64,000 nucleotides of DNA from the human T2T-CHM13v2.0 reference genome, Homo sapiens (GCF_009914755.1 NC_060927.1); one strand, 5' to 3'; counted from the first letter of the stretch, positions 2,620-18,885 are shown. Program-made: numbers and translations. Notes: generated by a model not told the origin, from the sequence alone.

Positions 2620-3360
2620 CTCTTAGACCGCCCAACCTTCCCAGCTCTTCCTTCCGAGGCGGCTACTCGATGACATCACATCCACTTCCGCTTCCGAAGG
2701 CGGCCTCTTTTCATTCCTCGGGACCGCTCTAGGCTGCCACCACGCCGGCTGGCCCCAAAAACTCGATGGTTGTTGGGCGGGGTCGTGACGTCCTTGGCGT
2801 GGCTGCAGGGGAGGCCGCGGCGGGGAAAATGGCGGACGGGAAGGCGGGAGACGAGAAGCCTGAAAAGTCGCAGCGAGCTGGAGCCGCCGGAGGTGAACAC
2901 AACCCCAGCGTCGTGGGCAGCGTGGGATGCTCCGGGCCTTTCTTTGAGCTCCCAGGGTGGGGGGAGTGGGGTGGGGCGAGAATGGGCGGATCTGGACCTC
3001 ACCCGGCCAGGTGTTGGGCCCAGACCTGCCTCGGGCACGCCCGATGCGGCCCTCTGGGCTCCGGGCCTACATCGCCTCCTTGCCTGGGGAGAGCCGGCCA
3101 CTGTTCGTCACCTCCTGGCCCCAGCGGAGGCCCTGATTCCGAGGAGAAGGGAGATGGGCGCCAGAAAGGGAGACCGAACTCGGGGTGGGACCAGGAGCGG
3201 CGGTGCAGGAGCCGCTACCGCCACACCGGAGACGCACATCACACAAAACACACACACCGGAGACGCTCATGAGACATAACATACACACAGTGCGAGCCAC
3301 CGAGTAGTTGCCGCGGGAACTGGCCGCAGGCTGAGTTTCTGACGGTGCCGGCCTCTCAGT
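2620..3360 (+). promoter_or_regulatory. PCNP: CpG-island, TATA-less promoter of PCNP
   Basis: GC/CpG-rich block spanning exon 1. It contains TGACATCA (2671-2678), tandem ETS/GABP sites CACTTCCGCTTCCG (2683-2696), GC box GGGCGGGG (2775-2782), CRE-like GTGACGTC (2785-2792) and YY1-type AAAATGGCGG over the ATG (2826-2835). Boundaries are approximate. Confidence 0.85.
2829..2892 (+). CDS. PCNP: PEST proteolytic signal-containing nuclear protein, coding exon 1 (MADGKAGDEKPEKSQRAGAAG+G)
   Basis: ATG at 2829 in context AAAATGG; donor GAG|GTGAAC at 2893; 64 nt, phase 1. The peptide matches the recalled PCNP N-terminus. Confidence 0.97.
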
Positions 3361-4848: not shown

Positions 4849-5737
<889 letters not shown>

Positions 5738-6443: not shown

Positions 6444-8402
6444 TAATTTTTTCAAAGTAAGGTACCTTTGTGCTCTAAGGCTCACCCCTCTCCAACTACT
6501 CAATGAAAAAACAAAAAAATGCTAGTACCATGTGTATTTTGATTTCATGTTAATTACATATTTTATTTGCTCAGAGTACAAATTAGATAAAATTCCTTTT
6601 ATTAAAATATTCCTTAGTAAAGAATCTAGTAATTTGCTATTTTATCCATGTTTTATGTTCTAAATTGATAAGTTATTTTCTCATTTTTAAAAAAACTGAT
6701 CATGTATTTAGTCATTCTTTAGTGTATAGATTGTTTCTACATATAAAGCCAGCAGGTTTTCTGTTTGTTTCTCTGTTCCATTGTGTAGAGCCAAAGAGGT
6801 TTTTATTTTAACTGTGTGTCAGTCACAGGAAAGTAGTTATTGTTTGGGCTCCACTATGAAATGTCATACTTGATTAGAGCTACAAATAGAATACAGAATA
6901 AAATTAGCGTAAGTGCTTTTAGTTATAAACAGACTCTGAAAAAACTGTTTGCATCATACTCTTTCAGAGATATTCTGTGCTTCATAAATTGAGTTCCGTT
7001 TTTCAGTGATTGAATAGCAATCTTGATTCTTTAATTCTTCAGGTGCTTTTGTGATTTTATATATAAGTAAGAGAATGGCACCTCAAGCAGCCATTTCAGT
7101 GCTATCTTTGTCTCTTAGGGAAATCCCAAAACATAATCCTGCTTAATTTCCCTGCCCTATACTGTCATTACAACTTTTACTCCTTGTCCAAAGGGAATAA
7201 AGAGTTTCTTTTATTTTTCATCTAAACAGAATCAAATGTTTTGTTCAAAGTGCTTATTAATCTAGAGACCCCATTATTCCAAAACTGTATAGATCTATAT
7301 CTATAGCCTCTGATCTTTTAATCCTTTACTTGTCAGTCTGTGTTCGACTTTTTTTCTCCCCATTCTAGCTCTGTGTCCTGCTTTCTTAACTGTTAATCAA
7401 GGCCATCTCTTGGAGCATCTTCTTTTTCTCCATAAATAAACTCTTGATCCAGTGTAGCATAATACATTCCATATGGTGAACGGGCAAACTGGGGAAAGAA
7501 AATAAAAGTTTTAATGATCAGCCAGCCTTCTTCTGTCTTACCGCCTGATATGTTCTTAGTCTCATATAACAGACCCAAGAAAGTCAGAATGTGAACTAAT
7601 TTCATCATTGACTTCATACAAACAGAAGCAAAATTAGCAAGACATTTTGCCTTCCAAACCTACATATGTATGCCTTCTACTGTTTGAAATTATGATTAGC
7701 TCATCTTTCATGAAAAAAACTAACATATAAACCAAAGTATGATTTTTTTTTTTAAATAGCTCTTATGGGTAGCTTAAAACAGGTAATAACCAAATTGTCA
7801 GAGTAGAATTAAATTTCTCAAGAGGGAATGACCTTGAAGTTCCTTTTCAACTCCTAAGATTGTGTGAGATGTACGTGAGGAACACATCACTCAAGGAAAT
7901 AACTGGGCTGTATTAACACTGTCATTTGGGTAATAATGGGCCTGTTTATAACTAGGTACTTTGTATGATTATTACATTACTGAAGAATATTAAAATTTAT
8001 TAGCCAAGTGTATTATTTTACCGTGTGACCAATTGCTCACAAACTACTAAGTGTAAAAGATGTTAGATAGATCTGATTTCTAAAAAGCAAAATCCCACAA
8101 ATAACCAGATTATTGTACAAATTGTAGTGTTTAGTTGAAGGGTCTTGACTTTTTGTGAACTCTGTGTTTATAATTTTAAATTGCTCTGTATTTTATGCTA
8201 GTTAATTCATGGGAGCCTCTTCTACTGCCACACAATCTCAGTTCCTGCTGTATACTCTAACAAACAGTGGAAGAGACTGTTGGGTCAGTAGGTGACAACT
8301 GCAGAGGTATCTTCCTTATAACGATGCTTTTTGAGGTTGCTGCTCCCATCAATCTGCTCAGTAAAAATAGCTCATCTTGGTAAGTTGTTTCGACTTCACC
8401 AG

Positions 8403-8617
8403 GACCTGAAGAAGAAGCAGAAAAACCTGTGAAAACTAAGACTGTTTCTTCCAGTAATGGAGGGGAAAGTTCCAGTCGCAGCGCTGAGAAGCGATCAGCT
8501 GAAGAAGAAGCTGCCGACCTCCCAACAAAGCCTACAAAGATCTCCAAGTTTGGATTTGCCATAGGTAGTCAGACGACAAAGAAAGCATCAGCCATATCCA
8601 TCAAACTTGGATCAAGT
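8403..8617 (+). CDS. PCNP: PCNP exon 2 ([13 protein letters not shown]...ISIKLGSS)
   Basis: Acceptor cttcaccAG|GA; donor AGT|GTGAGT at 8618; 215 nt; in frame with exon 1 (279 nt cumulative = 93 codons). Confidence 0.97.
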
Positions 8618-10025
8618 GTGAGTTGTTATTTCATATATGATGTTTGTAATGGGTCTTAAGGATTTGCTTTGGAAACGTGGCGTTTACTAGGTTATGGTAA
8701 ATTAAGGGTGAAAAGGTACATTGTTTGAGAAGTAATCTTTGACGTATGAACTTAGATGATTAGCACCCTGTTTAAGAAGGGTCTGAATGAATTTTATCTC
8801 AATAAAGCTGTTAAGAAACAAAGATTTGGAATATTAGGAACAACTATTATAGGGAATATGATTTATAAAATAATAAACTTAGAATTTTTCTGCGTTGGCT
8901 GGGCACAGTGGCTCACACCTGTAATCTGAAGACTTGGGGAGGCCAAAGTGGGAGGACCAGTTGAGCCCAGGAATTTCAGACCAGTCTGGGCAACATAGCA
9001 AGATCTATCTCTACAAAAAATAAAAATATAATTAAAAAAAAAATCTTTTTTCTAAGTTGAGCAAGTCCTCTGAAAAATATTGTCAGAAAGATTTTCCAAA
9101 GTTTTTTTTTTATCTTTCAGTGCCTGTAGTATTAAAAATAATATTGAGCAATCAGTTATTTGTATCTTAAAAGATGAATATTAGTAAGGTATTGCTTGAT
9201 AAGATCTACCTAATTATCTTACTTTGGAACGACAAATGGGAATTGAATACTGTATATCTTATGTTGGTAGTCTTTTACAGGTCAATATTTGATCCTTTGT
9301 TTTAAGATGTCAGCCTTAGATTAATACTTATTAACCATGGAACCTCTGGAAGTGTTTGAAATATTAATTTGAAGCATATGAAGTTGTAGATACTTGTTTC
9401 TGACCTATAATATGAAAATTTCATAACCTTCAACCAAATAGATTTCTTATTTAAGGAAAAAGGAAGTTACTTAAATAGTGTATTGCTATTGGCTTTGGAA
9501 AATGGTTACATTCTTGTGTGAGGAGAAAAATCCTAAAATTGCCTTTGAGTTGGTTATTTTTATTTGTGCTATGAAAGTTAATGCTCAATTGCCAGATGTG
9601 CATAGCTTTATTCTACATTAGATGTTTATTCAAAGATCTTAAAAATATGGTCTGGAGCAGTCAGTATATTTGGGCTATTCTCATTTTAAAAAGCTGTTAT
9701 TACTTAGAATCCCCACCCTCACTCTGCTCTGTTTGCCCTTTTTCTATTTCTATTTTTTAAAAAATTCAGTCTGAACAAAAAACATTGAGCTTATAACATC
9801 AGTACTTCATTACTCTATTTCTGTATTTCAGCTGGTAGTTTTTGTTTAATATGTAGTTATAAAACTTGTATAGACCTAACTGCATAAATATTTAATGTTT
9901 TTTGATAGGCAGTATGTTAAATATATATTCTCAGGTGTACTTCTACTATAGATGGTCCCCTTGAGAATAGATTTTACTGTGCATGAACATAGTTCCTAAA
10001 TCTAAATCCCTACTCTTTTTTTTAA

Positions 10026-14048: not shown

Positions 14049-14123
14049 AAGCCTAAAGAAACTGTTCCAACTCTTGCTCCAAAAACTCTTTCAGTAGCAG
14101 CAGCTTTTAATGAAGATGAAGAT
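14049..14123 (+). CDS. PCNP: PCNP exon 3 ([25 protein letters not shown])
   Basis: Acceptor tttcttcttcAG|AAG; donor GAT|GTAAGT; 75 nt, phase 0-0. Confidence 0.96.
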
Positions 14124-18829: not shown

Positions 18830-18885
18830 AGTGAACCAGAGGAAATGCCTCCAGAAGCAAAGATGAGGATGAAGAATATTGGAAG
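18830..18885 (+). CDS. PCNP: PCNP exon 4 (SEPEEMPPEAKMRMKNIG+AG)
   Basis: Acceptor ttttttctttAG|AGT; donor AAG|GTATTA; 56 nt. Confidence 0.96.

What the first reader, a model, noticed from the sequence alone, without database searches (positions are those of the whole stretch)
8268..8454. Hidden in-frame alternative exon plus 75-nt mini-intron overlapping the PCNP exon 2 acceptor
Seen: (1) a consensus donor TTG|GTAAGT at 8380, only 23 nt upstream of the normal exon 2 start, too close to splice to it. (2) An acceptor inside exon 2 (CTAAG at 8436, ctgtttcttccAG|8455) with a cleaner pyrimidine tract than the normal one. (3) An upstream acceptor aaacAG|8268 in phase 1, matching exon 1. (4) The PCNP frame is stop-free from 8261 to 8380. 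Splicing exon 1>8268-8379>8455 removes a 75-nt intron and stays in frame. It replaces residues 22-39 with VEETVGSVGDNCRGIFLITMLFEVAAPINLLSKNSSSC, giving a 198-aa isoform with a hydrophobic segment in an otherwise charged protein. If the mini-intron is retained, the TAA inside the donor (8381-8383) is a premature stop. Exon 1>8455 alone frameshifts to TAG at 8562. Inference: a mutually exclusive isoform/NMD switch. The 8268 acceptor is weak, and I cannot check whether this isoform is already annotated.
Basis: partly seen in the sequence, partly recalled or inferred. Interest (0 to 1): 0.8.

Follow-up and report, generated by a model that had tools for sequence, protein, structure and literature searches.

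The report
Conserved PCNP alternative exon, already annotated
The extra splice sites next to exon 2 of the human PCNP gene are real, already catalogued and conserved from birds to humans, but the usual form of the extra exon carries a stop codon, so it more likely lowers the gene's output than makes the proposed longer protein.

Summary
These are the donor TTG|GTAAGT at 8380, acceptors at 8268 and 8455, an open frame over 8261-8380, the 198-aa product, and the stops at 8381 and 8562. The feature is not hidden. The hub's RefSeq table lists exons 8202-8379, 8202-8617 and 8455-8617.

The protein database holds the 8379>8455 junction in 158/161-aa alternative-start isoforms of mammals and birds, in clusters of 101, 77 and 7 members. 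Two human retrocopies carry the 2892>8202 junction (old) and the 2892>8455 junction (young).

The annotated human acceptor is 8202, not 8268. From 8202 the exon-1 frame meets TAA 8258-8260, 119 nt before the next junction. Acceptor 8268 looks no better than a random AG. The 19 residues after ATG 8324 are 19/19 identical between human and birds.

Best reading: a deeply conserved, annotated splice-site cluster whose non-canonical choices are mostly unproductive, acting as a poison exon (AS-NMD), with a possible alternative-N-terminus isoform. No paper found describes it. Interest is low to moderate.

The parts
2829..2892 (+). PCNP exon 1 coding part. It ends in phase 1, and donor gag|GTGAAC follows at 2893. 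The start codon is in a strong context (A at -3, G at +4).
   Evidence: hub annotation
8202..8379 (+). Alternative exon of 178 nt, annotated in RefSeq. Its acceptor tag|T at 8202 has a good pyrimidine tract (91st percentile of AGs in the window). It is unique in the genome apart from one retrocopy.
   Evidence: hub annotation
8258..8260 (+). TAA in the exon-1 reading frame when acceptor 8202 is used. It lies 119 nt upstream of the 8379 junction, so it is a premature stop.
8266..8267 (+). It is weak in human and is not in the RefSeq exon list.
   Evidence: hub annotation
8324..8326 (+). ATG in the PCNP frame (A at -3), and the first ATG after the TAA at 8258. It would start the 158-aa alternative-N-terminus isoform, whose first 19 residues are identical in deer and two birds.
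8380..8385 (+). Strong donor GTAAGT (7 of 9 consensus positions). It contains the TAA at 8381-8383, which stops the frame if the mini-intron is retained.
8380..8454 (+). The 75-nt mini-intron that spans the canonical acceptor at 8403. It contains the purine run GAAGAAGAAG (8408-8417) and the branch-site-like CTAAG (8436-8440), whose A at 8439 lies 15 nt from the AG.
   Evidence: the junction is seen in proteins P0001-P0004, P0007 and P0009-P0012
8403..8617 (+). Canonical exon 2. Its candidate branch site, CTCAT (A at 8374), lies inside the alternative exon.
   Evidence: hub annotation
8455..8617 (+). Short form of exon 2, annotated in RefSeq. It is joined either to 8379 (in frame) or directly to exon 1 (frameshift, with TAG at 8562-8564).
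   Evidence: hub annotation
8190..8368 (+). Predicted RNA domain. A closing stem pairs 8190-8216 with 8342-8368 and buries the AG of acceptor 8202. This rests on thermodynamic prediction only.

Best explanation
The region 8202-8455 is a real cluster of alternative splice sites at the 5' edge of PCNP exon 2. It is already annotated and is conserved across amniotes. It holds three used acceptors (8202, 8403, 8455) and an internal donor (8380).

Donor 8380 lies only 23 nt from acceptor 8403, so it can only pair with 8455 (a 75-nt intron) or with a later exon. Only exon 1 > 8403 keeps the canonical reading frame open.
- Exon 1 > 8202, with or without removal of the mini-intron, meets TAA 8258-8260.
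- Exon 1 > 8455 shifts the frame and stops at TAG 8562.

[quoted passage not shown] A smaller amount of a 158-aa isoform may arise by starting or re-initiating at ATG 8324, the first ATG after the stop.

Shown here: the sites, the frames, the stops, the conservation of the encoded sequence, and the past use of junctions 2892>8202 and 2892>8455.
Inferred: NMD sensitivity, regulation, and any protein product.
For: 1. The hub's RefSeq table lists exons 8202-8379, 8202-8617 and 8455-8617.
2. Frames and stops were verified. TAA 8258-8260 lies 119 nt upstream of the 8379 junction, and three further junctions follow.
3. Retrocopy L002 (G000:C11) has exon 1 joined to 8202 and reads straight through 8202-8617, then exons 3 to 5 without introns. 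It is about 74-81% identical to the parent, so this junction is old.
4. Retrocopy L007 (G000:C13, about 94-96% identical) has exon 1 joined directly to 8455. So 2 of 6 PCNP retrocopies come from non-canonical forms.
5. Conservation: 12 of 13 word-sharing candidate protein clusters carry sequence from this exon.
   - Human versus degu is 18/18, 19/19 and 19/19 identical in the three segments compared.
   - Human versus two birds is 19/19 for the residues after ATG 8324, while the shared 139 residues are 124-125/139.
   - The part upstream of 8268 is also conserved, when read in two other frames (cat 18/20, goat 18/18). That points to constraint on the nucleotides across the whole 8202-8379 exon.
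6. Identity between parent and the C11 retrocopy is 81% over 8268-8379 and 87% over 8380-8402. That is as high as coding exons 4 and 5 (83%, 81%) and higher than the 3' UTR (61%).
7. Acceptor 8202 is stronger than 8268.
8. PMC11610582 (passages read) names an Ensembl NMD-biotype isoform, PCNP-202. It was abundant enough in long reads to be one of 31 genes with two quantified isoforms.
9. PMC7026658 (passage read) lists mouse Pcnp among the 100 genes with the most differentially retained introns, alongside classic poison-exon genes.
Against: - No RNA-seq junction counts or NMD-inhibition data could be consulted. Inclusion level and NMD sensitivity are therefore untested.
- I did not see the exon structure of PCNP-202, nor which Pcnp intron the mouse study scored. 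Neither paper is tied to this exon.
- PCNP is not known as an RNA-binding protein, so there is no obvious autoregulatory loop of the SR-protein type.
- Full identity of the 19 residues after ATG 8324 between human and birds also fits selection on a protein product.
- Predicted in-frame 198-aa isoforms in 3 species show that the exon can be read as coding.
- Conservation of the TAA itself in other species is only inferred from amino acids read in other frames. It was not seen in DNA.
Confidence: 0.55

Rival explanations
1. The selected function is a protein: the 158-aa isoform that starts at ATG 8324, crosses the 8379>8455 junction, and swaps residues 1-39 for a 19-residue hydrophobic N-terminus. 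The stop-containing upstream part of the exon would serve merely as 5' leader.
For: - The isoform is in the database as clusters of 101 (deer representative, named 'isoform 2'), 77 (hoazin X3) and 7 members.
- Its first 19 residues are 19/19 identical between human, deer and two birds, while the common part is 89-96% identical.
- In two murid/cricetid rodents, the 19 residues after the ATG change less (3 changes) than the 19 before it (my count from the sequences is about 9).
- ATG 8324 has A at -3 and is the first ATG after the TAA at 8258.
Against: - The other alternative exons listed in the hub's table (5064-5407, 5313-5407) begin at acceptor-type sites, so transcripts carrying this exon probably begin with exon 1 (inference). 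The strong canonical ATG at 2829 would then lie upstream and open a 40-codon reading frame that must be bypassed or followed by re-initiation.
- The part of the exon upstream of the ATG, and even upstream of 8268, is also highly conserved when read in non-coding frames. A leader sequence would not require that.
- The tryptic peptide of this N-terminus was found in no main text. Supplements were not searched.
Confidence: 0.2
2. One reading: exon 1 > 8268-8379 > 8455 is spliced at a meaningful level. It makes a functional 198-aa isoform with a hydrophobic insert, used in a mutually exclusive way with the canonical form.
For: - The frame is intact and the product is 198 aa.
- The same architecture is a predicted NCBI isoform in Eptesicus fuscus, Myotis daubentonii and Peromyscus maniculatus, i.e. 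3 of 12 clusters. These are 187-193 of 198 residues identical to the computed human product.
- The insert peaks at a Kyte-Doolittle mean of 2.0 over 15 residues, in a protein whose remainder averages -1.0.
Against: - 8268 is not among the RefSeq exon starts for human.
- Its pyrimidine fraction is 0.53, the 60th percentile of AGs in the window.
- The only consensus-type branch motif in the 10-60 nt range scanned is A8209, 58 nt upstream, with AGs at 8214 and 8240 in between. The perfect CTAAC motif (A at 8260) is only 7 nt from the AG.
- The stronger acceptor at 8202 lies upstream and is the one found in the old retrocopy.
- Gene-prediction software tends to favour open frames, so the other species' models are not independent proof.
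Confidence: 0.08
3. The conservation serves constitutive splicing of exon 2. It would reflect the branch site, the pyrimidine tract, intronic enhancers or a structured RNA. The alternative isoforms would then be tolerated by-products that NMD removes, with no regulatory role.
For: - The candidate branch site of acceptor 8403 (CTCAT, A at 8374) and its tract lie inside or next to the alternative exon.
- The 8190-8372 segment folds with z = -3.43 (1 of 300 shuffles), and z = -3.71 (0 of 300) when extended to 8402. A 24-bp interrupted stem buries the AG of acceptor 8202. That would suppress the alternative acceptor.
Against: - A branch site and tract explain about 40 nt, not about 180 nt.
- 2 of 40 control windows in the gene reach z <= -3, so the fold is unusual but not unique.
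- Amino-acid changes in other species, read as single-base changes (my inference), give a mixed picture. Three would keep pairs as G-U wobbles (8348 and 8352 in bats, 8352 in Grammomys). Three would break pairs (8351 in Peromyscus; 8215 in Perognathus and in cat).
- A perfect GTAAGT donor kept next to a constitutive acceptor is hard to explain if its use were only harmful.
Confidence: 0.12

Closest known systems
RefSeq/Gnomon PCNP alternative transcripts and isoforms (the human exons in the hub table; 'isoform 2'-type 158-aa proteins; X1/X3 198-aa models in bats and Peromyscus)
   Same: The donor (8380), the acceptor (8455), the 75-nt intron and the alternative N-terminus are the same.
   Different: For human, the listed upstream acceptor is 8202, not 8268. 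I could not see the human transcript records themselves, so the pairing of exons within single transcripts is inferred.
Conserved poison exons / unproductive splicing of SR-protein and TRA2 genes (AS-NMD; recalled from Lareau 2007 and Ni 2007, and seen in the abstract listing of PMC4379411)
   Same: Both are alternative exons with an in-frame stop well upstream of later junctions. In both, sequence conservation is as high as or higher than in coding exons, and extends over frames that are not translated.
   Different: PCNP is not a known splicing factor, so no self-regulating loop is evident. NMD sensitivity was not tested here. This exon abuts the constitutive exon and needs a second, internal acceptor.
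Sterically enforced mutually exclusive splicing (for example alpha-tropomyosin exons 2/3; recalled, not checked here)
   Same: Two splice signals lie too close (23 nt) to be used together, so choosing donor 8380 excludes acceptor 8403.
   Different: Here the exclusion is between a donor and the acceptor just downstream of it, at one exon boundary. It is not between two whole cassette exons.
Exitrons (introns inside annotated exons; recalled from Marquez 2015, not checked here)
   Same: Both ends of the 75-nt intron lie inside the annotated long exon 8202-8617, and its length is a multiple of three.
   Different: Only its last 52 nt are canonical coding sequence. The long exon that contains it is itself a minor, stop-containing form.

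Membership tests
Poison exon (AS-NMD cassette) | An alternative exon that is included in only some transcripts | tested here: met
   The hub RefSeq table lists 8202-8379 as an exon of other transcripts. Retrocopy L002 carries it, while 4 retrocopies carry the canonical junction.
Poison exon (AS-NMD cassette) | Inclusion places a stop codon more than 50-55 nt upstream of a downstream exon junction, in the main reading frame | tested here: met
   TAA 8258-8260 is in the exon-1 frame and lies 119 nt before the 8379 junction.
Poison exon (AS-NMD cassette) | The isoform is stabilised when NMD is blocked | not testable with these tools
   No expression data were available. PMC11610582 names an Ensembl NMD-biotype PCNP isoform, but I did not see its exon structure.
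Poison exon (AS-NMD cassette) | Conservation of the exon and of its stop across species | tested here: inconclusive
   The exon sequence is conserved: 12 clusters from mammals and birds, with degu identical in all compared residues. The stop is only inferred from residues read in other frames; no DNA of other species was available.
   One search gives a 198-aa product. The net change is +60 nt.
   It is not in the RefSeq exon list. Its sequence signals are weak. It is predicted in 3 other species.
Exitron | Both splice sites lie within one annotated exon | tested here: met
   8380 and 8454 both lie within the annotated exon 8202-8617 (hub table).
Exitron | The host exon is protein-coding and retention is the main coding form | tested here: not met
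   The long exon carries TAA 8258 and TAA 8381 in frame. The main coding form uses acceptor 8403.

The most novel reading that the evidence does not exclude
The exon is a two-way device conserved across amniotes. A structured RNA (stem 8190-8216 with 8342-8368) would set the choice among acceptors 8202, 8403 and 8455. When the exon is included, ribosomes that stop at TAA 8258 would re-initiate 64 nt downstream at ATG 8324. This would both blunt NMD and produce a PCNP form that lacks residues 1-39 and carries a hydrophobic, bird-to-human invariant N-terminus with its own function. In some lineages a minor 198-aa in-frame form via 8268 would be added.
Probability: 0.12. Interest if true: 0.6.

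Novelty: already known. Interest (0 to 1): 0.3.

Why it matters
PCNP is studied as a cell-cycle and tumour-linked nuclear protein. Term searches of two reviews of it (2019 and 2025) turned up nothing on its own splicing or isoforms. A stop-bearing exon conserved from birds to humans, sitting on the acceptor of exon 2, would be a post-transcriptional dial on PCNP dosage. It could be tested directly with antisense oligonucleotides against donor 8380. It would also matter for reading variants near 8202-8455, and for telling mRNA level apart from productive mRNA level. As a discovery it is modest: the sites are catalogued and the mechanism is a familiar kind.

Tried and rejected
- **Chance.** The donor motif count is not above expectation. 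The sequence features alone prove nothing, so I relied on outside evidence.
- **Repeat or transposon origin of the exon.** Rejected. The 178-nt exon matches only itself and the C11 retrocopy in the genome. That search skips very common words.
- **Known RNA family.** Only a sub-threshold SCARNA7 match at 7937-8032 (15 bits against a gathering score of 65, E = 0.23), which I take as chance.
- **Pfam.** The PCNP family domain starts after the alternative segment in P0003, P0011 and P0001. The segment belongs to no family.
- **Literature.**
  - PCNP + 'poison exon': 0 papers.
  - PCNP + 'ultraconserved': 0 papers.
  - The N-terminal peptide: 0 papers.
  - PCNP + 'nonsense-mediated': 9 papers, of which I read passages of 3. 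One names an NMD isoform, one is a mouse intron-retention list, and one is irrelevant.
  - PCNP + NMD + exon: 3 papers, the same ones.
  - A loosely set search returned general AS-NMD papers with no mention of PCNP.
  - PMC2941758 validates skipping of PCNP exons 3 and 4 (75 + 56 nt), which is a different event.
- **Limits of the literature search.** Supplementary tables of poison-exon and NMD surveys were not searched and may list this exon.
- **Covariation test of the predicted stem.** Not possible, because no DNA of other vertebrates is held.
- **Unused tools.** The third protein search, the structure tools and the complex tool would not bear on a splicing question.

Full report
**1. Checking the observation**

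I read 8100-8700 and exon 1 and recomputed every claim.

- Exon 1 coding sequence (2829-2892) ends in phase 1.
- The donor ttg|GTAAGT sits at 8380, 23 nt before the canonical acceptor (cag|G, exon from 8403).
- The acceptors acag|T (exon from 8268) and ttcttccag|T (exon from 8455) are there, with CTAAG at 8436-8440.
- The PCNP frame is open over 8261-8380, between TAA 8258-8260 and TAA 8381-8383.
- Exon 1 > 8268-8379 > 8455 translates without a stop to 198 aa.
- Exon 1 > 8455 first stops at TAG 8562.

The sequence alone is not beyond chance.
- GGTAAGT occurs 5 times in the window against 7.4 expected.
- The donor's 7 of 9 consensus matches place it in the top 1.45% of 3576 GT sites.

**2. It is not hidden**

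The hub's RefSeq table lists exons 8202-8379, 8202-8617 and 8455-8617 among the other PCNP transcripts. Donor 8380 and acceptor 8455 are therefore annotated. The annotated upstream acceptor is 8202, not 8268.

From 8202 the exon-1 frame runs 19 codons and meets TAA 8258-8260. That stop is 119 nt upstream of the 8379 junction. Apart from this one stop, the 8202-8379 > 8455 path also preserves the frame, with a net change of +126 nt.

**3. Strength of the sites**

Pyrimidine content at -20 to -4, ranked among all AGs of the window:

| Acceptor | Pyrimidine fraction | Percentile |
|---|---|---|
| 8202 | 0.71 | 91st |
| 8403 | 0.65 | 83rd |
| 8455 | 0.65 | 83rd |
| 8268 | 0.53 | 60th |

Branch-site candidates:
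- Acceptor 8268 has no yTnAy motif within 10-57 nt upstream. The only one in the 10-60 nt range scanned is A8209 (58 nt), with AGs at 8214 and 8240 in between. The perfect CTAAC motif (A at 8260) is only 7 nt from its AG.
- Acceptor 8455 has CTAAG with its A 15 nt upstream. This A lies 59 nt downstream of the donor, which is workable for a 75-nt intron.
- The candidate branch site of the canonical acceptor (CTCAT, A at 8374) lies inside the alternative exon.

**4. Evidence from other species**

I searched the protein database with the 40-residue translation of 8261-8380. That gave 6 scoring clusters among 10 candidates, all PCNP. A second search with residues 1-56 of the degu hit gave 12 scoring clusters among 13 candidates. 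The sequences fall into four groups of three.

Eptesicus fuscus X1, Myotis daubentonii X3 and Peromyscus maniculatus X1 are 198 aa long. Each consists of exon 1, then the segment from the 8268-equivalent, then the 8455-equivalent. They share 193, 192 and 187 of 198 residues with the computed human product.
- **(b) Alternative start.** These are a deer protein of 158 aa named 'isoform 2' (cluster of 101 members), hoazin X3 of 161 aa (77 members) and an owlet-nightjar protein (7 members). All start at the ATG-8324 equivalent and cross the 8379>8455 junction.
- **(c) Upstream start.** Degu, pocket mouse and Grammomys models start at the equivalent of ATG 8209 and read on into the same segment. 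In human this would need about 4 nt fewer near 8263-8266 (my inference).
- **(d) Frame-hopping models.** Cat, goat and Apodemus have ab initio models. They are useless as proteins, but they show the DNA read in other frames.

Identities to human:
- Degu is 18/18, 19/19 and 19/19 identical in the three exon segments.
- Both birds are 19/19 identical after the ATG, while the shared 139 residues are 124 and 125 of 139.
- Upstream of 8268, cat is 18/20 identical in one frame, and goat is 18/18 in another.

Conservation in three different frames over the whole of 8202-8379 points to constraint on the nucleotides, not only on one protein reading.

**5. Fossil junctions in the human genome**

Searching the assembly found six processed PCNP copies.

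- Four copies (L003-L006) have the canonical 2892>8403 junction.
- L002 on contig C11 has exon 1 joined to 8202. It then reads uninterrupted through 8202-8617 and on into exons 3 to 5. With identity of 62-87% by segment it is old, roughly of the order of 100 million years. That age is an inference from recalled neutral rates.
- L007 on C13 is 94-96% identical and has exon 1 joined directly to 8455.

So both unproductive junctions were present in germline mRNA at two widely separated times.

Segment by segment, the parent is 81% (8268-8379) and 87% (8380-8402) identical to the old copy. The coding exons range from 74% to 83%, and the 3' UTR is 61%. A dead copy decays evenly, so the parent's alternative exon has changed about as little as its best-conserved coding exons. 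The segments are short, so this is supporting evidence and not decisive.

**6. RNA structure (a lead only)**

| Segment | z-score | Shuffles folding as well |
|---|---|---|
| 8190-8470 | -2.98 | 1 of 200 |
| 8190-8372 | -3.43 | 1 of 300 |
| 8190-8402 | -3.71 | 0 of 300 |
| 8268-8379 alone | -0.12 | 127 of 300 |
| 8380-8454 (mini-intron) alone | -0.86 | 55 of 300 |

- The signal comes from a long closing stem, 8190-8216 with 8342-8368, that buries the AG of acceptor 8202.
- Two of 40 control windows in the gene reach z <= -3.
- A small hairpin (8441-8470, z = -2.61) buries the pyrimidine tract of acceptor 8455.
- Amino-acid changes in other species, read as single-base changes, would keep three pairs as wobbles and break three. 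There is therefore no covariation support.

**7. Literature**

- No paper in the searchable library joins PCNP with 'poison exon' or 'ultraconserved', and none holds the N-terminal peptide.
- PMC11610582 (passages read) reports long-read quantification of a coding PCNP isoform and an Ensembl NMD-biotype isoform, ENST00000460231. The latter is less edited and less expressed. I did not see its structure.
- PMC7026658 (one passage read) lists mouse Pcnp among the 100 genes with the most differentially retained introns in B-cell development.
- In two PCNP reviews, PMC6797571 and PMC12052563, term searches for isoform, splicing and transcript variant found nothing about PCNP's own isoforms or splicing.
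- PMC2941758 concerns skipping of exons 3 and 4, a different event.
- Supplementary tables were not searched.

**8. Reading**

The best-supported explanation (0.55) is a conserved, annotated splice-site cluster. Its non-canonical choices are unproductive for the canonical frame, so it behaves like a poison exon. Donor 8380 and acceptor 8403 exclude each other by proximity.

Rival explanations:
- Selection on the 158-aa alternative-N-terminus protein (0.2).
- Conservation that serves constitutive exon 2 splicing or structure, with the isoforms as by-products (0.12).

These are not fully exclusive. After the stop at 8258 the next ATG is 8324, in frame, 64 nt downstream, so termination followed by re-initiation could yield the 158-aa form from the same mRNA. 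That step is inferred.

**9. Verdict**

The feature is already in the catalogues of human and many other species. Its biological role is undescribed in the papers I could search, and it most probably belongs to a familiar class. Novelty: already known. Interest: 0.3.

Noticed in passing
L002 (G000:C11:111117410-111117794), L003 (C12:111647030-111647240), L004 (C12:65625677-65625885), L005 (C9:101133073-101133281), L006 (C23:73972105-73972318), L007 (C13:47548651-47548814): There are six processed PCNP retrocopies in the assembly. Two of them derive from non-canonical splice forms: exon 1 > 8202-8617 and exon 1 > 8455. That is a high share for isoforms expected to be degraded.
   Followed up: yes
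window 14049-14052: Exon 3 starts cag|AAG|CCT, and the hub table lists both 14049 and 14052 as exon starts. This is a tandem NAGNAG acceptor that adds or drops one codon.
   Followed up: partly
window 5064-5407: Two annotated alternative PCNP exons (5064-5407 and 5313-5407) lie on the strand opposite to the RPS18P5 processed pseudogene (5059-5603). Both have strong pyrimidine tracts (99th percentile) and share the donor gag|GTCAGT. This looks like an exon recruited from antisense pseudogene sequence.
   Followed up: partly
window 8441-8470: A predicted 12-bp hairpin pairs the pyrimidine tract of acceptor 8455 with the purine-rich start of the short exon, leaving the AG in or next to the loop (z = -2.61; 4 of 300 shuffles fold as well).
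   Followed up: partly
window 8408-8417: The purine repeat GAAGAAGAAG sits 6 nt into canonical exon 2, and so inside the 75-nt mini-intron. It resembles known GAA-type exonic enhancers (recalled) and could favour acceptor 8403 over the donor 8380 / acceptor 8455 pair.
   Followed up: no
window 14049-14123 and 18830-18885: PMC2941758 reports RT-qPCR validation of joint skipping of PCNP exons 3 and 4 (75 + 56 nt). The exon-containing form was relatively lower in neuroblastoma and glioblastoma than in normal brain. It is a separate, frame-shifting event in the same gene.
   Followed up: partly
window 7937-8032: There is a sub-threshold Rfam match to SCARNA7 (15.2 bits against a gathering score of 65, E = 0.23). 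I take it as chance.
   Followed up: no
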